A stretch of DNA of 47,496 nt from positions 68,034-115,529 of the forward strand of contig PQAE01000005.1 in NCBI GenBank assembly GCA_003104935.1, given 5' to 3'. Both the position numbers and the translations under genes were made by a program. The notes under the pieces were generated by a model, which saw only the letters and a list, made by a program, of their open reading frames with translations, had not been told where the DNA came from and did not search any database. Position 1 is the stretch's first letter; every line of letters starts with the position of its first letter. The stretch is from Parcubacteria group bacterium (GTDB taxonomy: Bacteria; Patescibacteriota; Patescibacteriia; UBA1558; GWA2-36-10). This document shows positions 5,183 to 35,146 of the stretch, one piece after another.

Positions 5183-6664
5183 ATGAGCGTGGCTCCTCTC
5201 AAAATATTATTTGTCGGCGCGGAACTAGAACCCCTGGTCAAGGTGGGGGGACTAGCCGATGTAATGGGATCTTTGCCACGGGCTTTGGCCAAACAGGGTC
5301 TAGACATCAAGATTATCATTCCTTTTTACGCCAACATTGACCGGAAAAAATTTCATTTCCGTTTGAAGCAAAAAAATATTTCGCTGGATTTAGACAGCGA
5401 TACTACGACTTTTGATTTGTATCAGAGCAGATTACCTAACAGCAATATAGTAATCTGGTTGATAAAACACCGGTTATTTGATTACCCGGATATTTATCTC
5501 GGCCAAAGAAAATATCTCCAGGGGCGGTCTTATACTCGGTCAACCAACGACATTGAGAGGTTTACTTTTTTTTCCAAGGCGGTCGCGGAGCTTATCCGCC
5601 AGAGCGCCTGGAAACCCGATGTTGTCCATTGTCATGATTGGCACACGGCTCTGGTCCCGACATTCATCGACGAGTACAGTCTGGAATATAATAGTTTCCC
5701 TAATATTAGCACTTTATTTACTATTCATAATCTGGCTAATCAGGGCGTTGCCGGCTTGGATCTGATAAATTATGCCAATTTGCATCATGACTGGACCCCG
5801 GCTTTGATGGAAGACTATTATGATCGTGATGGCGATGTTGTTGATCTGATAAAGATCGGCATCTTATCAGCTGATCAGGTCAGCACAGTTAGTCCGACTT
5901 ATGCTCGGGAGATTTTAAGTAAACAATTTGGTGAAAGCCTAGAAAAATATCTGCAGCGCCGGCGCCACGACCTCAGCGGAATTTTAAACGGTCTGGATTG
6001 GAAATTTTTTGACCCGGCGCATGATAAATTTATTAAAAAAAATTATTCCAGAGCTAGTTTAGACCGGGGTAAGGCTGTAAATAAATTATTTTTACAGAAG
6101 AAAATAGGGTTATCCGGCCGAGCAAGCGTTCCATTATTTTCCTTGGTCAGTCGTCTGGTCAAACAAAAGGGTCTGGATATTTTACTGCCGGCACTAAAAA
6201 ATATTTTGGCAAAAAACGATCTACAGATCGTAATTTTGGGTAACGGCGAGCCCCTTTATGAAAAACAGCTAAAAAAACTAGCCCAGGAATTTTCCCAGAA
6301 ATTAAAAGTTATTGTGTCTTTTGACGCTGTATTGGCTCAACAGATTTATGCCGGCTCCGACTTCTTTTTGATGCCCTCCCAGTTTGAGCCCTGCGGTCTG
6401 GGGCAGATGATTGCTCAGCGCTACGGTAGCATCCCGGTCGCCCGCCAAACAGGCGGATTAAAGGACACTATTAGCAACAATCAAACCGGTTTACTGTTTC
6501 GTCCCTATCAATCCCAGGCCTTATTATTTGCTCTGAGTCGAGCCGTGAAGCTTTATCAAAATAAAAATAAATTTTACGCTATGCGGAAAAGAATTATGAA
6601 AATAGACCATTCTTGGTCAGCCTCGGCCAAAGAGTATATAAAAATTTATAAAAAATTAAGCTAA
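5183..6664 (+). CDS. glgA: Glycogen synthase (NDP-glucose dependent)
   Basis: N-terminal KILFVGAELEPLVKVGGLADVMGSLP is present, along with C-terminal FEPCGLGQM and GGLKDT. Confidence 0.9.
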   Translation: MSVAPLKILFVGAELEPLVKVGGLADVMGSLPRALAKQGLDIKIIIPFYANIDRKKFHFRLKQKNISLDLDSDTTTFDLYQSRLPNSNIVIWLIKHRLFDYPDIYLGQRKYLQGRSYTRSTNDIERFTFFSKAVAELIRQSAWKPDVVHCHDWHTALVPTFIDEYSLEYNSFPNISTLFTIHNLANQGVAGLDLINYANLHHDWTPALMEDYYDRDGDVVDLIKIGILSADQVSTVSPTYAREILSKQFGESLEKYLQRRRHDLSGILNGLDWKFFDPAHDKFIKKNYSRASLDRGKAVNKLFLQKKIGLSGRASVPLFSLVSRLVKQKGLDILLPALKNILAKNDLQIVILGNGEPLYEKQLKKLAQEFSQKLKVIVSFDAVLAQQIYAGSDFFLMPSQFEPCGLGQMIAQRYGSIPVARQTGGLKDTISNNQTGLLFRPYQSQALLFALSRAVKLYQNKNKFYAMRKRIMKIDHSWSASAKEYIKIYKKLS

Positions 6665-6668
6665 ACAT

Positions 6669-7607
6669 ATGGCGTTAAAATTATCAGAAATCAGAAAAGA
6701 CTATATCCAGGATAAATATGTGATTATCGCACCGCGGCGCAGTGAACGGCCTCAGGAGGCGGCCAGTTTAGCCGATTATCCTAAGAAAAAAATGGAAGAA
6801 AAATGTATTTTTTGTCCCGGTAGTCTCCGGCGGGTTAGGAGTCTTTATCACCGGGATTTATTGAAAAACTGGAGCCTTAACGTTATCGCTAATAAATATC
6901 CAGCGGTTTCTCTGGATAATCCTAAGGCCTATGGCCAACAAGAGGTAGTGATCGAGACGCCGGATCATCGCCGGGAGCTGGAAGAATTGCCGGCCAAGAA
7001 TATCGCCGGCTTGTTGGAGGCTTATTCGGCACGCAGTAAAGCCATCTGTAAAAATCCGCGGATTCAATACGTCTTGATTTTTAAAAACAACGGCGGTGTG
7101 GCTGGTGCCAGTCAGAGTCATGCCCATAGCCAGATATTTGCCACGGAGTTTTTGCCGCCACATCTTTTTGAAAAATCACAAAAACAACAGGCCTACAAAC
7201 TAAAGTTTGGGCGCTGTGTTTATTGTGATGTTATCCGTCAGGAATCCAAGGGACCGCGGTTGGTTTATAAAGATAGAGAGGTGATCGCTTTTACTCCCTA
7301 TGCCTCTATGTTTAACTATGAGATCTGGATCATGCCCCTGGCGCATCGGGACAATATCATCGAGTTGACACCCAGAGAAAGAATGGCCTGGGCCAAGCTT
7401 TTAAAACGCGTACTGGTCAAAATCGGGCGTATGAATTTGCCCTATAATTTTTATTTCCACCACGTGATCAATGATAATGACCAACATCTATATATGAAAG
7501 TGGTGCCGAGGGGCAGTATTTGGGCGGGAGTTGAGATTGGCTCAGGACTTATCATCAATGCTATTTCACCGGAAGAGGCGGCCAAGTATTATAGACAAAA
7601 TCTGTAA
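6669..7607 (+). CDS. GalT-type hexose-1-phosphate nucleotidyltransferase / NDP-sugar phosphorylase (HIT superfamily branch III)
   Basis: Has Zn-site-like CIFCPG and active-site SHAHSQ (the HxHxQ motif). Confidence 0.75.
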   Translation: MALKLSEIRKDYIQDKYVIIAPRRSERPQEAASLADYPKKKMEEKCIFCPGSLRRVRSLYHRDLLKNWSLNVIANKYPAVSLDNPKAYGQQEVVIETPDHRRELEELPAKNIAGLLEAYSARSKAICKNPRIQYVLIFKNNGGVAGASQSHAHSQIFATEFLPPHLFEKSQKQQAYKLKFGRCVYCDVIRQESKGPRLVYKDREVIAFTPYASMFNYEIWIMPLAHRDNIIELTPRERMAWAKLLKRVLVKIGRMNLPYNFYFHHVINDNDQHLYMKVVPRGSIWAGVEIGSGLIINAISPEEAAKYYRQNL

Positions 7608-17241: not shown

Positions 17242-17268
17242 ATTCTTTTCTTTAATTATTATATGGGT

Positions 17269-17297
17269 ATTATAACAAGAAAAAAAATTTTTGCCAA
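17269..17297 (-). promoter_or_regulatory. Promoter TTGGCA-17-TATAAT
   Basis: On the minus strand: -35 at 17292-17297 and -10 at 17269-17274, 28 nt upstream of the protease ATG. Confidence 0.45.
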
Positions 17298-17339
17298 AAG
17301 GAGATAAAAGGTGAATTCTCCTTCATTTAACCAAGAACT

Positions 17340-17625
17340 AATAACCTACAAACTTCGGGGGTAGGGTAGGTATTTTTAGTATAGCCCTATTTGACCCCAT
17401 AAGCGACAGGCCTCAATGCTTGCCTGCCCGCTACGGCCAAGTCCGTAAGGCTTTAACAGGTGGGGTATGGGGGGTACCTTATTGCACCGTAGGAGCATAT
17501 GTAAAGAAGTGAATAAAATAATAAATGGTGCTGTCGCTACGGGGCGAGACGTGGTTCTATTTGCCATTTAGATGAAAAACAAGCCCTAGTGCCTGGCACT
17601 AGGGTACTCTTATTTTCTTGACAAA
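17340..17625. ncRNA. Structured non-coding region of unassigned family and strand
   Basis: No credible ORF. Long-range complementarity: agcgacag 17402-17409 with ctgtcgct 17531-17538, and ctacgg 17431-17436 with ccgtag 17487-17492. There are several local hairpins. The region ends in the hairpin ccctagtgcc/ggcactaggg, which has U-rich tails on both strands. Confidence 0.3.
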
Positions 17626-17627
17626 AT

Positions 17628-17655
17628 ACAGATCAATTCTATAATATAGCCAGCT
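17628..17655 (+). promoter_or_regulatory. Promoter TTGACA-16-TATAAT
   Basis: Both hexamers are consensus. No + strand CDS follows. Confidence 0.5.
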
Positions 17656-17661
17656 TGGTCT

Positions 17662-17788
17662 CTGCGTCCGAAATACGGCCTGAGGTCAAGACTATGCCAT
17701 TGCGATGGCATCACCCGCCCTACGGCGGGGCGCGCGACAGCAGGGGCTAGTGCTCGGTACTAGCCCCTGTTTTCTTTTAGTTGAAATA
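17662..17788 (+). ncRNA. Candidate small RNA (~125 nt), family unknown
   Basis: Bounded by the consensus promoter and an 11-bp terminator (caggggctagt/actagcccctg plus ttttctttt). Internal hairpins are atgccat-tgcg-atggcat and cccgcc-ctac-ggcggg. Confidence 0.45.
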
Positions 17789-17795
17789 TACAAAT

Positions 17796-21568: not shown

Positions 21569-21668
21569 TGGAGCGGGATACGGCCCTGCACCTCGCTTCG
21601 CGAGTGCAGGATCTTCGTTCGTCACTGCCTTCTGGGCAGTGACTCACTGCGAGAATTAACTCCACGGG
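21569..21668 (-). pseudogene. tRNA-Gly-derived degenerate copy with inserted hairpins, ending in ...cccgctcca
   Basis: The minus strand reads gtggagttaattc (compare gtgtagttcagtt) ... gaagatc ... ggccgtatcccgctcca (compare tccggtcacccgctcca). It is interrupted by a 9-bp hairpin (21621-21643) and an 11-bp hairpin (21585-21610). Confidence 0.45.
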
Positions 21669-21933: not shown

Positions 21934-22016
21934 TGGAGCGGGTGATCCCGCTTCGGGCGGGACGACCTTTTCCCTTGATGCGGTCGCCGTTAAATAATTA
22001 ACTTTGGCGGCCAATG
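21934..22016 (-). pseudogene. tRNA-Gly 3'-half-like fragment ending in cacccgctcca
   Basis: The minus strand reads tcaagggaaaaggtcg (compare ccaaggaaaaggtcg), then tcccgc-ccgaa-gcggga replacing the T arm, then tcacccgctcca (12/12 match). Confidence 0.5.
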
Positions 22017-22111: not shown

Positions 22112-22148
22112 CCCCGGATCAAGTCCGGGGTTTGGCGGGCAGGCCCGC
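22112..22148. repeat. Two GC-rich hairpins abutting the tRNA-Gly(GCC) 5' end
   Basis: ccccgga-tcaag-tccgggg (22112-22130; near-copy at 33923-33940) and gcgggc-ag-gcccgc (22135-22148). Confidence 0.6.
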
Positions 22149-23556: not shown

Positions 23557-23630
<74 letters not shown>

Positions 23631-23679
23631 TTAAAAAATAATTTCATTTATCATTAAGGTTTTTTGTCTCTGACTGATG

Positions 23680-23728
23680 ACCACTTTCCGCCAAAGGCGG
23701 ACCCGCCTCTGGCGGGGGCTACGTGGCC
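23680..23728 (-). pseudogene. tRNA-Cys 5' fragment with two hairpins inserted in the D loop
   Basis: The minus strand reads ggccacgtagcc (12/12), then cccgcc-aga-ggcggg, then tccgcc-ttt-ggcgga, then aagtggt (7/7). Confidence 0.6.
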
Positions 23729-23774
23729 ATTATCTCCAGAGAGATGAGCTTCATTAGTTTTATTTTGTTTTTAA

Positions 23775-23933
23775 GGAATCTCTGCCCAAAACATATGGGC
23801 CTTGGGCCCAGAACCGTCGCTGCACCCGCCAAAGCTTTAGCGTCTGGGTTAAAGGTTTTGCCCGCCTGCCATCGCCTTCGGCGAGACCGTGGCGGGCAGG
23901 CAGACCTCTGCCTTACCACTTGGCGACCAGGCC
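23775..23933 (-). pseudogene. tRNA-Cys-derived copy with insertions in the anticodon loop, variable region and T loop
   Basis: The minus strand reads ggcctggtc, then gccaagtggtaaggcagaggtctgc (25/25), a ~40-nt GC hairpin, aaaacctttaac (12/12), a 31-nt insert, cggttc, tgggcc-caa-ggccca plus 15 nt, and gattcc. No matching 3' acceptor strand is present. Confidence 0.6.
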
Positions 23934-29530: not shown

Positions 29531-29581
29531 AAATTTCGTAATTTAATGAATTTTTGTTTATTTATCCGCTCAACGGGCTGT

Positions 29582-29614
29582 TCCGCCACTGGCGGACAGA
29601 CGCCCCCTCGGGCG
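29582..29614. repeat. Two GC-rich hairpins in the nusA leader
   Basis: tccgcc-act-ggcgga (29582-29596) and cgccc-cctc-gggcg (29601-29614). They belong to the same family as the hairpins at the tRNA loci. Confidence 0.6.
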
Positions 29615-29615
29615 A

Positions 29616-29648
29616 AAAAAATAGTTAGTCTACTATCGTAAACTAACT
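29616..29648 (-). terminator. Terminator-like hairpin plus T7 inside the nusA leader (possible attenuator)
   Basis: The minus strand reads agttagt-(12 nt)-actaact followed by attttttt. It lies downstream of the promoter at 29658-29686. Confidence 0.35.
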
Positions 29649-32059: not shown

Positions 32060-33856
32060 ATGTGCGGTATTGTCGGTTACATCGGTAAACGCGACTCGGT
32101 TAATATTTTAATTAACGGTTTGCATAAGCTGGAATACCGGGGCTATGACAGCGCCGGTATTTGTGTTTTGGATAACGAAAATCTATCTCTAGTCAAGGAG
32201 CAAGGTCAAATCGAGGCGCTGGTCAGCCGCTTGTCCAGCCGGCCTATATCGGGAGCGATCGGTATTGCCCATACCCGCTGGGCGACGCACGGTGAACCCA
32301 GCGAGCGCAACGCCCACCCTCACATGGATTGCCATGGCGACATTGCCATAGTGCATAACGGTATTATAGAAAACTATCAAAGCTTAAAAAAATTATTGCA
32401 GGACGAAGGACATAAAATAGTATCTCAGACTGACTCGGAAATATTTGCCCACCTGGTAGAAAAATTTTATCAGGGCGACTTGGAACAGGCAGTCCGTAGC
32501 GCCCTACAACTGGTTGAAGGGGCATATGGTTTGGCCGTACTGCATCGCCAGGAGCGGAAAATAATAGCGGCGCGGCGCGGTTCGCCTCTGATTTTAGGCC
32601 TGGGACTGGGTGAGATGTATATCGCTTCCGATGTGCCGGCTATTTTACAGCACACCAAGGAGATTGTTTATCTGGATGATAATGAGTTGGCCGAGGTGAC
32701 TGCAGACGGATACAATATTAAAAATCTGTCCGGCCAAGTCGTCGATAAAAACATCGAGCATATAAAATGGAGCGTGGAGGAGCTGGAGAAAAAGGGTTAT
32801 AAGCATTTTATGCTTAAGGAAATTTTTGAGCAACCAGAAGCCATCGCCAATACTTTAAGGGGAAGGGTGAAAAACGGGCAGATTAAACTAAGTCTGAATT
32901 TGCCTAAAAAAATTCAACGCATTATCATCAGCGCCTGCGGCACCAGCTGGCACTCTGGTTTAATCGGAAAATATTTATTGGAATCCCTGTCCGGCATCAT
33001 CACCGAGGTTGATTATGCTTCCGAATTCCGCTACCGCCAGCCGCTCATCGGTCCGGAGGATTTACTGATCGTCATTTCTCAGTCGGGCGAAACGGCCGAT
33101 ACTTTAGGCGCTCTGCGTGAAGCTAAGGCCCGCGGCGCTCATACATTGGGGATAGTGAATGTTGTGGGTTCCACCATCAGTCGGGAAGTGGAATCGGGTA
33201 TTTATTTGCATGCCGGACCGGAAATCGGCGTAGCCAGCACCAAAGCTTTTAGCTGCCAGGTCACCGCTTTGCTCGTCCTGGCATTATTTTTGCGGCAGGA
33301 ATCCGGCCGAGAGCTGGATCAGGATCTTTTATCAGAGTTGGATAAATTGTCGGAGTATATAAATAAATCTTTGGAGCAGGATCAGGTAGCACAGGAAATT
33401 GCCGACAAATTTAAAGCAGTGAAAAACTTTCTATATCTGGGCCGGGGATTGAATTTTCCCGTGGCCCTAGAAGGAGCGCTAAAGCTCAAAGAAATTTCCT
33501 ATATCCATGCCGAGGGCTATCCGGCCGCCGAGATCAAACACGGACCGATCGCCCTGGTGGACAAAAAAATGCCGGTGGTTTTTCTGGCCAGCAAAAGCCA
33601 TCTTTCTCCCAAACTGATCAGCAATATGCAGGAGATAAAGGCGCGCGGAGGCATTATTATTTCCGTAACTAATAATCAGGAAGAAGAGGTAGCCAAACAA
33701 AGCGATTATGTGCTGACCGTGCCCCAGGTGCGTGATGAGCTGTCGCCGATTATAAATGTCATACCCTTACAACTCCTGGCTTACCATATTGCCGACTTGC
33801 GCGGGTTGGACGTAGATAAACCTAGAAACTTAGCAAAGAGCGTGACAGTGGAATAG
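32060..33856 (+). CDS. glmS: Glutamine--fructose-6-phosphate aminotransferase
   Basis: N-terminal MCGIVGY (catalytic Cys2), two SIS domains, and C-terminal KSVTVE. Confidence 0.95.
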   Translation: MCGIVGYIGKRDSVNILINGLHKLEYRGYDSAGICVLDNENLSLVKEQGQIEALVSRLSSRPISGAIGIAHTRWATHGEPSERNAHPHMDCHGDIAIVHNGIIENYQSLKKLLQDEGHKIVSQTDSEIFAHLVEKFYQGDLEQAVRSALQLVEGAYGLAVLHRQERKIIAARRGSPLILGLGLGEMYIASDVPAILQHTKEIVYLDDNELAEVTADGYNIKNLSGQVVDKNIEHIKWSVEELEKKGYKHFMLKEIFEQPEAIANTLRGRVKNGQIKLSLNLPKKIQRIIISACGTSWHSGLIGKYLLESLSGIITEVDYASEFRYRQPLIGPEDLLIVISQSGETADTLGALREAKARGAHTLGIVNVVGSTISREVESGIYLHAGPEIGVASTKAFSCQVTALLVLALFLRQESGRELDQDLLSELDKLSEYINKSLEQDQVAQEIADKFKAVKNFLYLGRGLNFPVALEGALKLKEISYIHAEGYPAAEIKHGPIALVDKKMPVVFLASKSHLSPKLISNMQEIKARGGIIISVTNNQEEEVAKQSDYVLTVPQVRDELSPIINVIPLQLLAYHIADLRGLDVDKPRNLAKSVTVE

Positions 33857-33864
33857 TTTATATC

Positions 33865-33893
33865 TTGACCAGGATAAGGGTTTAGGGTATTAT
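33865..33893 (+). promoter_or_regulatory. Promoter TTGACC-17-TATTAT
   Basis: Precedes the tRNA-Glu-like fragment, tRNA-Glu and the 3' fragment. Confidence 0.5.
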
Positions 33894-33945
33894 AAGCTAC
33901 GTTATTAATTTTATAGCTCCATCCCCGGATTAAGTCCGGGACAAG

Positions 33946-34042
33946 CTACGTGGTTAGTCCGCCAGAGGCGGACAGGGACACCAGGTTTTTCCCGCCAATG
34001 GCGGGACCCCGCCCTGGCTATGGCCAGAGGCGGTGGCATCCC
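33946..34042 (+). pseudogene. tRNA-Glu 5'-half-like fragment split by three GC hairpins
   Basis: ctacgtggttag (D-loop-like), then tccgcc-aga-ggcgga, then gacaccaggtttt (13/13), then cccgcc-aat-ggcggg and ccgcc.ctggc-tatg-gccag.ggcgg, then catcc. Confidence 0.55.
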
Positions 34043-34113
34043 TAATGATAAGAAACTTAAAAACATTTTGATAAATATAATAAGAGGTTAGTTCTTCTTG
34101 GTGACCCGACAAC

Positions 34114-34188
34114 GGCCCCATCGTCTAATGGTTAGGACACCAGGTTTTCATCCTGGCAATTCGGGTTCGATTCCCGGTGGGGTCACCA
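34114..34188 (+). tRNA. tRNA-Glu (anticodon UUC), CCA encoded
   Basis: Acceptor ggcccca/tggggtc, anticodon arm ccagg-ttTTCat-cctgg, and T arm tcggg-ttcgatt-cccgg. Confidence 0.95.
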
Positions 34189-34206
34189 AGAAGAACTTAG
34201 CTCTAA

Positions 34207-34313
34207 CAATTCGGGTTCTGGGCCAAAGGCCCATCCGCCTCTGGTGGAGATTCCCGGCTTTGCCCCGCGGAGTTCCGAGCGAAGTCGAGGGACGAAGTGG
34301 GGTGGGGTCACCA
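34207..34313 (+). pseudogene. tRNA-Glu 3'-half-like fragment split by hairpins
   Basis: caattcgggttc (12/12), then tgggcc-aaa-ggccca and tccgcc-tct-ggtgga, then gattcccgg (9/9), then a 45-nt insert, then tggggtcacca (11/11). Confidence 0.65.
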
Positions 34314-34366
34314 AAAAACACTCATCTAAGGAGGGGTATTTTTTGATAATTTAAAGACCTAAGATA

Positions 34367-35083
34367 TTATTTTATCTGCCATTTTTTTGGTAATGGCCCA
34401 GTAGATTTTTTATAAATATATCTAACCAAATCAGATAAAATACTTTTCTTTTCTCTTATATTTTTGGATCTATAAAAATTCTCTAATTTTTTACAAAAAA
34501 TTTTGTCTAGATTGCGCAAAACAGATCCTATCTCATTTGGCTGGGGCAGAAATTTACCACTTAACTTAAGACGAAACTCTAGGATATTGGTGAGTAATAA
34601 ATGACTGTCAATGCCAAAAGCCACATAGTCTCCTTTTTCCAGATCACGCTGTACCTCCCCCCAAAAATCATCAATGGAGTACTTGTGCATCAATATCTCG
34701 TCTTTGCTGTATCTGGTAGCCAGCTGTAAATTTTTTTTGGCCTGCTTCTGAATTTTTTCTAAATAAACTCCTCTTTGAAAAAGAATTTTCCCGTGGACTA
34801 GCATATCCGATGTGATTCTTCGCACGTTATTTTTATCTTGCTGCAAATAGGTTCTAGCCTCCTCTAAAGTGTTTAGTATGATGTCTACCCTCAGTCTATT
34901 GCTTATAAAATTTTTCCGGGAGAATCTAGATTTTTTCTTCAATAAAATATATATGTCAACGTCAGAATATTTATCAAATTTTTTCTTGACCACCGATCCA
35001 AATAATAAGATGCCCAAAACATTTTTATCTGGGCTATATTCTTTTACTATATTCCGGGAAATGGTTTTAATAATTTGTTTCAT
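34367..35083 (-). CDS. Nucleotidyltransferase-domain protein (Pol-beta superfamily, KNTase-like)
   Basis: GILLFGSVVKKKFDKYSDVDIYILL fits the GS...D.D NTase motif, followed by a helical C-terminal half. The gene is markedly AT-rich. The ATG at 35083 is preferred over the GTG at 35140. Confidence 0.65.
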   Translation of the reverse strand: MKQIIKTISRNIVKEYSPDKNVLGILLFGSVVKKKFDKYSDVDIYILLKKKSRFSRKNFISNRLRVDIILNTLEEARTYLQQDKNNVRRITSDMLVHGKILFQRGVYLEKIQKQAKKNLQLATRYSKDEILMHKYSIDDFWGEVQRDLEKGDYVAFGIDSHLLLTNILEFRLKLSGKFLPQPNEIGSVLRNLDKIFCKKLENFYRSKNIREKKSILSDLVRYIYKKSTGPLPKKWQIK

Positions 35084-35146
35084 AAAATAAAACAGGGCCA
35101 AGGTAAGTATATCACTTTTCCTTGGCCCCGTGAACGCCACCTTTTA

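What the first reader, a model, noticed from the sequence alone, without database searches (positions are those of the whole stretch)
33865..34320. tRNA-Glu is bracketed by a 5'-half and a 3'-half copy of itself, each cut up by GC-rich hairpins
Seen in sequence: the canonical tRNA-Glu(UUC) lies at 34114-34188. Upstream, 33946-34042 repeats its D-loop and anticodon-arm blocks (tggttag; gacaccaggtttt 13/13; catcc). These blocks are separated by hairpins tccgcc-aga-ggcgga (33958-33972), cccgcc-aat-ggcggg (33991-34005) and a nested ccgcc/ctggc hairpin (34009-34033). The last two sit exactly between anticodon-loop nt 35 and 36. Downstream, 34207-34313 repeats caattcgggttc (12/12), gattcccgg (9/9) and tggggtcacca (11/11, including CCA). 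These are separated by two hairpins in the T loop and a 45-nt GC-rich insert. A TTGACC-17-TATTAT promoter (33865-33893) precedes all three parts, so one transcript is likely. Inference: perfect blocks plus clean insertions do not look like neutral pseudogene decay. Three explanations are possible. (i) Scars of repeated site-specific integration and excision, since the anticodon loop and T loop are the classical integrase target sublocations in tRNA genes. (ii) An insertion-laden tRNA paralogue split around a functional copy, reminiscent of the insertion-rich rRNA genes reported for CPR bacteria. (iii) A tRNA-mimic, decoy or processing scaffold. None of these is established.
Basis: partly seen in the sequence, partly recalled or inferred. 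Interest (0 to 1): 0.8.

Follow-up and report, generated by a model that had tools for sequence, protein, structure and literature searches.

The report
Working tRNA nested in hairpin-riddled old copy
In this Patescibacteria (CPR) genome, a working tRNA-Glu gene sits inside the split remains of the older tRNA-Glu gene, and those remains carry small GC-rich hairpin modules at fixed positions in the tRNA loops; the same pattern recurs at other tRNAs and in other uncultured bacteria, and I found no description of it.

Summary
The intact tRNA-Glu(UUC) lies at 34114-34188. A 5' partial copy (33915-34041) and a 3' partial copy (34207-34313) flank it, and both are cut up by GC-rich hairpins.

The flanking pieces are the ancestral gene. 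They keep the promoter and terminator positions that the single tRNA-Glu gene has in relatives. The intact copy lies inside them, bracketed by a 28-nt leader/trailer helix.

An orthologous contig (L201, GlmS 76% identical) has the same nesting. The 5' outer part is 82-100% identical there. Neutral sites are saturated (43%) and the spacer is 57%. The leader/trailer helix keeps pairing through two compensatory changes. This is constraint, not decay.

The hairpins form a family of 15-nt units, often paired into 30-nt modules. They sit at anticodon-loop 35|36 and T-loop 56|57. The window's tRNA-Cys flank carries the same T-loop module and both tRNA-Gly flanks carry other GC hairpins. At least seven unrelated low-GC metagenome contigs carry the module. 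A Kryptoniota contig has a different two-hairpin insert at 56|57.

The window encodes no integrase, transposase or homing endonuclease. The outer Glu pieces do not rebuild a tRNA.

Best reading: a co-transcribed, exapted leader and trailer around a replacement tRNA. What the hairpin modules do is unresolved.

The parts
33865..33893 (+). Promoter-like site TTGACC-17-TATTAT; the ancestral tRNA-Glu promoter
   Evidence: scores it 10 of 12. Relatives show the same TTGAC-17-TATkAT, about 22 nt, then GGCCCyATC layout (L001, L002, L003, L201, L203).
33915..33923 (+). Outer 5' remnant of the acceptor strand (AGCTCCATC against GGCCCCATC)
   Evidence: It lies at the same distance from the -10 hexamer as the tRNA 5' end in relatives. 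L201 has GGCCCTATC here.
33923..33941 (+). Hairpin hp1, CCCCGGA-TTAAG-TCCGGG, inserted after tRNA position 9
   Evidence: It is conserved in L201 (CCCCGGATCAAGTCCGGGG). The same unit lies 3 nt upstream of tRNA-Gly(GCC) at 22113-22129.
33943..33957 (+). Degenerate D-arm remnant AAGCTACGTGGTTAG (the D-loop block TGGTTAG is intact)
33958..33972 (+). Hairpin hp2, TCCGCC-AGA-GGCGGA, at the D-loop/D-stem boundary
   Evidence: Its base pair covaries in L201 (U-A to C-G). L201 carries a 19-nt nested extension in its loop.
33976..33989 (+). Block GGACACCAGGTTTT: D-stem 3' strand, anticodon-stem 5' strand and loop up to nt 35
   Evidence: 14/14 identical to the tRNA and 14/14 identical in L201.
33990..34006 (+). 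Hairpin hp3 (CCCGCC-AAT-GGCGGG), first insert at anticodon-loop 35|36
   Evidence: Present in L201.
34007..34036 (+). Nested hairpin hp4 (CCGCC-CTGGC-loop-GCCAG-a-GGCGG), second insert at 35|36
   Evidence: hp3 plus hp4 are 87% identical in L201.
34037..34041 (+). Block CATCC (anticodon nt 36 to 40); end of the outer 5' part
34042..34082 (+). AT-rich spacer, poorly conserved
   Evidence: 57% identity to L201. It contains no ORF.
34083..34110 (+). Leader arm L, complementary to the tRNA 3' end (including CCA) plus the trailer
   Evidence: repeat I1: 28 nt, 89% complementary. It is kept in L201 with two compensatory changes. The duplex form is 5.8 kcal/mol more stable than the acceptor-stem form.
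34114..34188 (+). Intact tRNA-Glu(UUC); the inner, functional copy
   Evidence: It is 74/75 identical in L201.
34177..34204 (+). Trailer arm L' (last 12 nt of the tRNA plus a 16-nt trailer), which pairs with L
34207..34218 (+). Outer 3' block CAATTCGGGTTC (variable loop, T-stem 5' strand, T-loop to nt 56)
   Evidence: 12/12.
34219..34248 (+). 30-nt T-loop module at 56|57: TGGGCC-AAA-GGCCCA plus TCCGCC-TCT-GGTGGA
   Evidence: The same module lies at 23781-23810 (-) and in L081, L091, L112, L127, L153, L187 and L199. L201 lacks it.
34249..34257 (+). Block GATTCCCGG (T-loop 57-60 and T-stem 3' strand)
   Evidence: 9/9.
34258..34302 (+). 45-nt GC-rich hairpin insert between the T stem and the acceptor 3' strand
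   Evidence: L201 has a different GC-rich hairpin stretch at this place.
34303..34313 (+). Outer acceptor 3' strand plus ACCA (TGGGGTCACCA)
34314..34346 (+). Terminator-like hairpin and T run; the ancestral tRNA-Glu terminator
   Evidence: repeat I4. The sequence caccaaaaaacactcatct matches the context directly after tRNA-Glu in L003 and L001. The terminator scan did not call it.
23656..23933 (-). Two hairpin-laden 5' partial copies of tRNA-Cys upstream of the intact gene (23557-23630). Copy 1 (23933-23775) has a 35|36 insert and the T-loop module. Copy 2 (23728-23656) has a 30-nt D-loop module (23716-23687).
21934..21973 (-). 3' partial copy of tRNA-Gly(GCC), with the T arm replaced by the hairpin TCCCGC-CCGAA-GCGGGA
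21569..21660 (-). Hairpin-rich trailer of tRNA-Gly(CCC), ending in a second CCCGCTCCA just before the terminator

Best explanation
The region from about 33865 to 34346 is one tRNA-Glu transcription unit in a Patescibacteria chromosome.

Shown:
- The outer 5' and 3' pieces are the remains of the ancestral tRNA-Glu gene. They still sit behind its promoter and in front of its terminator.
- A complete replacement copy of tRNA-Glu lies inside them, between tRNA positions 40 and 44.
- That copy is bracketed by a 28-nt leader/trailer helix that also pairs the tRNA's CCA end.
- The leftover pieces carry short GC-rich palindromic units: a 6-bp stem, a 3-nt loop and a GCC-N3-GGC core, often paired into 30-nt modules.
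- The units sit at the tips of the old tRNA loops: the D loop, anticodon loop 35|36 and T loop 56|57.
- The nested layout, the 5' outer part and the helix are conserved in a relative whose neutral sites are saturated.

Inferred:
- The whole unit is transcribed from the old promoter.
- The leader/trailer duplex acts as a processing stem, as in rRNA operons and probably for RNase III. It releases the inner pre-tRNA for RNase P and 3' trimming.
- The hairpin-studded leftovers have been exapted as a structured leader and trailer. The stable local hairpins disable the old D, anticodon and T loops. The leftovers therefore cannot fold with, or be processed as, the working tRNA.
- The original split came from recombination that placed a full tRNA copy into the resident gene. 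In relative L001 a GIY-YIG nuclease gene sits in the equivalent position.
- The hairpin units themselves spread by a copy-and-paste process that I could not identify.
For: Ancestral context:
- The promoter, a 22-nt gap and the tRNA 5' end are laid out the same way in L001, L002, L003, L201 and L203. The window's AGCTCCATC occupies the tRNA-start position.
- The terminator context 'caccaaaa.a.actcatc' follows the outer 3' piece in the window. It follows the single tRNA directly in L003 and L001.

Ortholog L201 (GlmS 76% identical) has the same nesting. Segment identities are:
- Outer 5' part 0.82-1.00.
- Anticodon-loop inserts 0.87.
- Leader arm L and trailer arm L' 0.81 each.
- tRNA 0.99.
- Spacer 0.57.
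- Outer 3' remainder 0.43.
- For comparison, glmS four-fold degenerate sites are 0.43 identical.

Structure:
- The leader/trailer helix has two compensatory pairs, and hp2 and a 5' helix have one each.
- Both loci fold far better than shuffles, with z-scores of -7.95 and -8.69.
- The duplex form is 3.4-5.8 kcal/mol more stable than the acceptor-stem form, and CCA is paired in both.
- Only one promoter-like site lies upstream on the forward strand, and no terminator lies before 34314.

Hairpin family:
- 14 motif hits against 0.81 expected.
- 13 of 17 perfect GC hairpins lie in tRNA flanks.
- Nine T-loop modules are all exactly 30 nt, with covariation in the second hairpin (hpB) and the T stem.
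- The insertion sites 35|36 and 56|57 recur for Glu, Cys and Ser. 56|57 also recurs for Arg-like, Trp-adjacent, Thr and Gly fragments, and in Kryptoniota contig L067.

Other points:
- The outer Glu pieces are not a tRNA.
- The L001 ORF matches the GIY-YIG family, PF01541, at E = 7.5e-10.
Against: - There are no transcript data, so co-transcription, RNase III cleavage and any leader function are all inferred.
- Only one ortholog carries the nested layout, so covariation rests on two sequences.
- The outer 3' part, including the T-loop module, is not conserved in L201. Constraint is therefore shown only for the 5' part and the helix.
- A 'disarming' role does not explain why module sequence and length are so uniform across distant lineages and tRNA types.
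- Both arms of an inverted repeat can also co-vary if they are transposon ends.
- Imperfect stem pairs show no clear excess of G-U over A-C. This does not favour an RNA-level over a DNA-level structure.
Confidence: 0.5

Rival explanations
1. The hairpin modules are selfish, site-specific mini-elements at the DNA level. They insert at the tips of tRNA-gene loops (35|36, 56|57). They survive only in redundant partial copies, because insertion into a working tRNA is lethal. The outer pieces are then tolerated junk.
For: - Module length is uniform (30 nt) and sequence is near-identical across tRNA types and distant lineages.
- Presence differs between the window and L201 at the same T loop.
- The unit CCGCC-AGA-GGCGG occurs four times, in both orientations.
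- hp1 occurs in both orientations relative to tRNAs.
- Modules also occur outside tRNA contexts: L112 287-316, window 29582-29596 and L201 499-528.
- Hairpins are nested within hairpin loops.
- Distribution among lineages is patchy.
Against: - This does not explain the constraint on the whole 5' outer part, 82-100% against 43% at neutral sites.
- No transposase, HUH or RAYT enzyme, or recombinase gene lies in the 47.5-kb window.
- There are no target-site duplications.
- No known enzyme moves 15-30-nt hairpins.
- The first hairpin (hpA) looks invariant partly because the search pattern required it.
Confidence: 0.2
2. The outer pieces, or the 5' piece alone, are released as a stable tRNA-Glu-like small RNA. 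It acts in trans as a mimic, sponge or decoy for a tRNA-binding enzyme, a toxin nuclease or a regulator.
For: - The 5' outer part is under constraint, including blocks identical to the tRNA.
- It is strongly structured.
- The leader/trailer stem would cut it free.
- A Pol-beta-type nucleotidyltransferase gene lies next door at 34367-35140.
Against: - The acceptor, D and anticodon stems of the outer Glu copy are broken, and the anticodon is interrupted. Most tRNA-recognising proteins would therefore not bind it.
- It matches no Rfam family.
- In other loci only 3' fragments exist.
- There is no expression evidence.
Confidence: 0.12
3. The partial copies are scars of repeated integration and excision by integrases that target the anticodon loop and the T loop.
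For: - Partial tRNA copies next to an intact tRNA are the classic signature of integration.
- The loops are classic crossover sites (general knowledge).
- 3' copies occur in tandem in L153 and L067.
Against: - The window has no integrase or island DNA.
- Only 18 nt separate the tRNA from the 3' copy.
- A 5' copy is present as well.
- Copy end points vary: positions 24, 35, 40 and 62 on the 5' side, and 29 to 68 on the 3' side.
- In L199 the fragment's T stem (AAGAG/CTCTT) pairs with itself, not with the neighbouring tRNA's (ATCAG/CTGAT). An attR site cannot do this.
- The inserts are fixed 30-nt modules, not element ends.
Confidence: 0.05
4. The outer gene is a working tRNA with several small introns, or a split tRNA, whose hairpins are removed at the RNA level.
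For: - In L187, removing the two modules and the inner segment gives a perfect tRNA-Ser(UGA) cloverleaf. Its stems differ from the inner tRNA by compensatory changes.
- The insert positions recall archaeal non-canonical introns (general knowledge).
Against: - The window's outer Glu and Cys copies do not rebuild a tRNA.
- Many loci keep only a 3' fragment (L091, L127, L153, L199).
- The L112 copy lacks an acceptor 5' strand.
- An intact tRNA lies beside each fragment. Where the fragment's anticodon can be read, it matches that tRNA, except in L112 (CCT beside TCT).
- The hairpins are self-contained, so no bulge-helix-bulge motif can be drawn across the junctions.
- There is no group I intron signal.
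Confidence: 0.03

Closest known systems
tRNA-gene remnants (attL/attR repeats) left by integrative elements
   Same: Partial copies of a tRNA lie next to the intact gene. The copy that keeps the old flank is the displaced one. Tandem accumulation occurs (L153, L067).
   Different: There is no integrase or island. Both 5' and 3' remnants occur within 100 nt of the tRNA. End points vary. The remnants carry fixed hairpin modules at the loop tips. One remnant is under selective constraint.
REP/BIME-type extragenic palindromes and other small palindromic repeats (general knowledge)
   Same: They are short, GC-rich and multi-copy palindromes in transcribed non-coding DNA. They occur in both orientations and often in pairs.
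   Different: These units are only 15 nt (6-bp stem, 3-nt loop). They concentrate in tRNA-derived sequence at defined loop positions. They are shared across distant lineages. No RAYT-type gene was seen.
Archaeal tRNA genes with multiple non-canonical introns, and split tRNAs (Thermoproteales, Nanoarchaeum; general knowledge, see PMC3239211)
   Same: tRNA sequence is interrupted in the D, anticodon and T loops. Halves are brought together by a GC-rich complementary helix.
   Different: The host is bacterial. There is no bulge-helix-bulge motif. The interrupted copy in the window is not a viable tRNA. An intact copy is always adjacent.
Leader/trailer processing stems of rRNA operons, and intervening sequences in bacterial and CPR rRNA genes (general knowledge)
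   Same: A long conserved helix forms between sequences flanking a stable RNA. Hairpin-like insertions occur in a structural RNA gene of CPR bacteria.
   Different: Here the helix flanks a single tRNA and sequesters its CCA end. The insertions lie in a dead gene copy, not in the functional RNA.
TIGR stem-loop guide arrays of CPR bacteria and phages (PMC12045711)
   Same: They are arrays of short variable segments separated by palindromic hairpins, and they occur in Parcubacteria.
   Different: There are no box C/D motifs and no Tas (Nop-domain) gene. The tRNA blocks lie between hairpins rather than inside their loops. This was rejected.

Membership tests
tRNA (Rfam RF00005) | Cloverleaf scoring above the 29-bit gathering threshold | tested here: met
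   The inner copy at 34114-34185 scores 61.7 bits. ARAGORN calls it tRNA-Glu(ttc).
tRNA (Rfam RF00005), outer copy | A cloverleaf is recovered, natively or after removing the inserts | tested here: not met
   There is no second tRNA hit at E up to 10 in 33700-34500. ARAGORN finds nothing in two hairpin-free reconstructions of the outer Glu copy, nor in the outer Cys copy. The L187 outer Ser copy does rebuild a tRNA.
Integrase att-site scar | An integrase gene or island DNA lies between or beside the repeats | tested here: not met
   The 35 main ORFs of the window were scanned against Pfam. 32 matched ordinary chromosomal gene families, 3 had no match, and none matched an integrase, transposase or nuclease family. 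Only 18 nt separate the tRNA from the 3' copy.
Integrase att-site scar | The repeat runs from a fixed crossover point in a loop to the tRNA 3' end, and the attR T stem derives from the host tRNA | tested here: not met
   End points vary between loci. A 5' copy is present. The L199 fragment's T stem differs from its neighbour's and is self-complementary.
Archaeal-type (bulge-helix-bulge) tRNA intron or split tRNA | A bulge-helix-bulge motif across the exon-intron junctions | tested here: not met
   By inspection, each insert consists of self-contained perfect hairpins. No 4-bp helix flanked by 3-nt bulges can be formed between the two junctions.
Archaeal-type (bulge-helix-bulge) tRNA intron or split tRNA | A splicing endonuclease (EndA) is present in the genome | not testable with these tools
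   Only 47.5 kb of a 115.5-kb contig is available. The window contains no such gene.
Group I intron in a tRNA | A match to the group I intron covariance model | tested here: not met
   No such hit appears at E up to 10.
tmRNA or two-piece tmRNA | A tRNA-like domain plus a tag reading frame | tested here: not met
   ARAGORN finds no tmRNA. The permuted tmRNA model scores 11.1 bits against a 47-bit threshold.
REP/BIME-like palindromic repeats | Short, GC-rich, multi-copy extragenic palindromes in both orientations | tested here: met
REP/BIME-like palindromic repeats | An associated RAYT/HUH transposase in the genome | not testable with these tools
   The window has none, and the rest of the genome is not available.
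MITE (for the unit 34083-34204) | Terminal inverted repeats plus a target-site duplication | tested here: inconclusive
   28-nt inverted repeats are present. No target-site duplication is seen in the window or in L201. No other copies of the arms were seen in the window.
TIGR-Tas array | [quoted passage not shown] | tested here: not met
   There are no such motifs in the hairpin loops, which are only 3 nt. No Nop-domain protein was found. The description comes from PMC12045711.

The most novel reading that the evidence does not exclude
The 30-nt double-hairpin modules are a distinct system that is widespread in Patescibacteria and has analogues in other phyla (L067). It recognises the tips of tRNA loops (35|36, 56|57). 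It is either a structure-targeting insertion mechanism that colonises tRNA-gene copies, or a dedicated RNA signal that marks, disables or directs processing of tRNA-like RNA in pre-tRNA transcripts. In either case an unknown protein partner reads the GCC-N3-GGC hairpins.
Probability: 0.25. Interest if true: 0.85.

Novelty: new variant of a known kind. Interest (0 to 1): 0.68.

Why it matters
tRNA genes are among the most conserved and best annotated genes. Leftover copies are normally read as dead traces of mobile elements.

Here the leftovers are conserved, highly structured and co-oriented with the working gene. They carry a uniform hairpin module at exact loop positions, across many uncultured lineages.

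If the modules are mobile, they would be the smallest structure-targeting insertions known in bacteria. If they act at the RNA level, they point to an unknown step of pre-tRNA handling in CPR bacteria, whose RNA-processing toolkit is reduced.

There is also a practical consequence. Standard tRNA finders miss these loci, and they can confuse tRNA inventories, att-site prediction and island detection in metagenome-assembled genomes.

Tried and rejected
- Rfam at gathering and at permissive thresholds found nothing but the five tRNAs.
- Exact look-up of the window's GlmS protein found no contig on record.
- A homologue search with the L001 GIY-YIG protein returned only the protein itself. I could not test whether such nucleases are regularly linked to split tRNA loci.
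- A viral-contig scan for the T-loop module gave 0 hits.
- Most of the 120 metagenome hits to GTTCTGGGCCNNNGGCCCA were chance matches in GC-rich coding DNA. Only the low-GC contigs L081, L091, L112, L127, L153, L187 and L199 were genuine.
- I considered a TIGR-Tas guide array after a literature hit and rejected it.
- I also considered a T-box, a retroelement primer-binding site (for the leader arm), a hammerhead ribozyme, an integron attC site and IS200/IS605 ends. None has its defining motif here. These comparisons rest on inspection and on general knowledge.
- Nine literature searches found no description of the architecture.
- A first alignment of L187 used the wrong strand and was redone.
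- Counting G-U against A-C mismatches, to separate RNA-level from DNA-level hairpins, gave too few cases to decide.
- My first shuffle statistic, total matched bases, was too crude. I replaced it with longest match and colinear chain.
Full report
**1. Observation**

The window is ordinary chromosome from a Patescibacteria (Parcubacteria-like) bacterium.
- GlmS (32060-33856) is at best 69-76% identical to Parcubacteria/Patescibacteria proteins.
- 32 of the 35 ORFs scanned match ordinary chromosomal gene families: PolA, trigger factor, NusA, TruB, TsaD/E, aminoacyl-tRNA synthetases, a penicillin-binding protein and others. Three matched nothing.

ARAGORN and Rfam place one tRNA-Glu(UUC) at 34114-34188.
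- Minor corrections: the anticodon-arm block is 14/14 and the 3' block is 13/13.
- The T-loop insert is exactly 30 nt, made of two 15-nt hairpins.
- A further 5' remnant, AGCTCCATC, and a hairpin at 33923-33941 extend the upstream copy to 33915.

The matches exceed chance.
- Exact matches of 14 and 13 nt occurred in 0 and 1 of 1000 conservative shuffles.
- The CCGCC-AGA-GGCGG motif has 14 hits against 0.81 expected.
- 13 of the 17 perfect GC hairpins in the window lie in tRNA flanks.
- The region folds with a z-score of -7.95.

**2. The outer pieces are the old gene and the intact tRNA is the insert**

In relatives that carry a single tRNA-Glu after glmS (L002, L003, L203), the layout has three parts.
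- The promoter is TTGAC-17-TATkAT.
- About 22 nt follow, containing ACGTT, and then GGCCCyATC.
- In L003 and L001 the tRNA is followed directly by 'aaaag.actcatc-loop-gatgagt-TTTT'.

In the window, the promoter-proximal position is held by the outer 5' remnant. The terminator context ('caccaaaaaacactcatct...') follows the outer 3' remnant. The intact tRNA lies between tRNA positions 40 and 44 of the old gene.

The intact tRNA is flanked by a 28-nt inverted repeat (34083-34110 and 34177-34204). This repeat pairs the leader with the last 12 nt of the tRNA, including CCA, plus a 16-nt trailer.

**3. The architecture is conserved under selection**

Contig L201 (GlmS 76% identical) has the same order of parts: promoter, hairpin-laden 5' piece, spacer, leader arm, tRNA, trailer arm and 3' piece.

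Four-fold degenerate sites of glmS are only 43% identical, so neutral sites are saturated. Against that baseline:

| Segment | Identity to L201 |
|---|---|
| Outer 5' part | 82-100% |
| Anticodon-loop hairpins | 87% |
| Leader and trailer arms | 81% each |
| Spacer | 57% |
| Outer 3' remainder | 43% |

The leader/trailer helix keeps pairing through two compensatory changes. hp2 and a 5' helix each show one.

Energy calculations favour the duplex over the acceptor stem by 5.8 kcal/mol in the window and 3.4 kcal/mol in L201. CCA is paired in either fold.

L201 lacks the T-loop module, and its D-loop hairpin has a 19-nt nested extension. Modules are therefore gained or lost, while the 5' framework is kept.

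**4. The hairpins are a family with positional rules**

Other tRNAs of the window:
- Two 5' copies of tRNA-Cys carry a 35|36 insert, the same T-loop module and a 30-nt D-loop module.
- tRNA-Gly(GCC) is followed by a 3' copy whose T arm is replaced by a GC hairpin.
- tRNA-Gly(CCC) has a hairpin-rich trailer ending in a second CCCGCTCCA.

A metagenome scan for the first T-loop hairpin found the full module in seven low-GC contigs. It lies in fragments beside intact tRNA-Ser, Glu, Arg, Trp and Thr genes.

All nine aligned instances (the two from the window plus these seven) share four properties.
- The module is exactly 30 nt.
- It lies between GGTTC and GAWTC, that is at 56|57.
- The second hairpin (hpB) was not part of the search pattern. 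It is usually TCCGCC-N3-GGCGGA, and three of its pairs covary.
- The flanking T stems stay paired (87% of cells).

In L081 and L187, a different 30-nt module (CCAGCC-N3-GGCTGG, TCGGCC-N3-GGCCGA) sits at 35|36 of a tRNA-Ser copy. It is almost identical between the two contigs, although the tRNA body has diverged with compensatory changes.

All units share a GCC-N3-GGC core.

The module is patchy. A covariance model finds none in 38 loci that were selected only by GlmS similarity. Most CPR tRNAs in those loci are plain.

A Kryptoniota contig (L067, 54% GC) shows tRNA-Lys followed by 2.2 copies of a 139-nt unit. Each unit is a 3' tRNA part with a different 42-nt two-hairpin insert, again at 56|57.

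**5. What the outer copies are not**

- Not working tRNAs in the window. There is no Rfam hit, and ARAGORN finds nothing after hairpin removal.
  - In L187, removing the modules and the inner segment gives a perfect tRNA-Ser(UGA). Its stems differ from the inner tRNA, and a 12-nt direct repeat marks the insertion. That looks like a younger stage of the same process.
- Not integrase scars.
  - There is no integrase or island.
  - End points vary, and 5' copies are present.
  - The L199 fragment's T stem is self-complementary but unlike its neighbour's.
- Not archaeal-type introns, group I introns, tmRNA or TIGR arrays.

**6. Origin of the split**

In L001 (GlmS 69% identical), a 5' tRNA-Glu fragment with a D-loop hairpin is followed by an 88-aa GIY-YIG nuclease ORF and then the intact tRNA. 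A nuclease-bearing cassette that carries a tRNA copy is one plausible source.

Recombination of incoming DNA anchored in the conserved tRNA sequence is another. In L199 and L187 the inner and outer tRNAs differ, which fits replacement by a foreign allele. All of this is inference.

**7. Mechanism I commit to (confidence about 0.5)**

The locus is one transcript running from the old promoter to the old terminator. The leader/trailer duplex is a processing stem that frees the inner pre-tRNA. The hairpin-studded leftovers serve as a constrained, structured leader and trailer whose loops have been disabled by the modules.

The main rival, at 0.2, is that the modules are purely selfish loop-targeting mini-elements. 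The two views are not exclusive. How the 15-30-nt units spread, and what reads them, remains open.

**8. Limits**

- There are no expression data.
- Only one ortholog carries the nested layout.
- The invariance of the first hairpin (hpA) is partly an artefact of the search pattern.
- Coordinates for L127, L153 and L187 refer to the reverse complement of the stored loci.
- Only 47.5 kb of the 115.5-kb source contig could be examined.

Noticed in passing
window 23656-23933 (-), 21934-21973 (-), 21569-21660 (-), 22113-22129: Four of the five tRNAs in the window (Cys, Gly-GCC, Gly-CCC and Glu) have partial copies of themselves or GC-hairpin-rich flanks. tRNA-Leu(UAA) does not. The hp1-type hairpin CCCGGA-N5-TCCGGG sits 3 nt upstream of tRNA-Gly(GCC).
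   Followed up: partly
window 17242-17795: A 550-nt intergenic stretch between a subtilase/FG-GAP gene and holA. It holds several GC-rich hairpins (for example CCCGCC-CTAC-GGCGGG at 17714-17729) and matches no Rfam family. It may be an unannotated structured RNA.
   Followed up: partly
window 29570-29625; L201 499-528: A pair of GC-rich hairpins lies just beyond the terminator of the UPF0102 gene. The position is the same in the window and in L201, but the stem sequences differ (TCCGCC/GGCGGA plus CGCCC/GGGCG against CCGCCC/GGGCGG plus TCACCC/GGGTGA). Double hairpins therefore also occur outside tRNA-derived sequence.
   Followed up: partly
L001 6487-6896: A 5' tRNA-Glu fragment with a 38-nt GC hairpin in its D loop, then an 88-aa GIY-YIG nuclease ORF (6573-6836), whose last 15 nt overlap the 5' end of the intact tRNA-Glu (6822-6896). 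It is a possible mobile cassette that splits tRNA genes.
   Followed up: partly
L067 1308-1663 (-): In a Kryptoniota contig, tRNA-Lys(CTT) is followed by 2.2 tandem copies of a 139-nt unit (95% identical). Each unit contains the tRNA 3' part with a 42-nt two-hairpin insert at T-loop 56|57. The insertion rule is the same, but outside the CPR.
   Followed up: partly
L021 806-1131: tRNA-Ser(GCT) is followed by a terminator and a hairpin-rich stretch of about 200 nt that contains an inverted T-arm-like segment (GGGATTCGAAC). A 13-nt repeat of the tRNA 3' end, preceded by a GC hairpin, comes after that.
   Followed up: no
L199 5036-5199: tRNA-Gly(CCC) is followed by GGTTC, four consecutive 15-nt hairpins (about 60 nt), and then a 19-nt exact copy of the tRNA 3' part. 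This is a longer version of the T-loop insert.
   Followed up: partly
window 34043-34051 and 23654-23646 (-): The 9-mer TAATGATAA follows the last tRNA-like block in both the Glu and the Cys upstream copies. L201 does not have it, so this may be chance in AT-rich sequence.
   Followed up: no
window 34367-35140 (-): A 257-aa Pol-beta-superfamily nucleotidyltransferase gene, with weak similarity to conflict-system NTases, converges on the tRNA-Glu unit. No partner gene was identified.
   Followed up: no
window 33958-33972 and 34234-34248: The D-loop hairpin of the 5' piece and the second T-loop hairpin of the 3' piece are 93% complementary over 15 nt; it is the same unit in opposite orientation. 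The minimum-energy fold pairs them, joining the two outer halves. L201 does not conserve this.
   Followed up: partly
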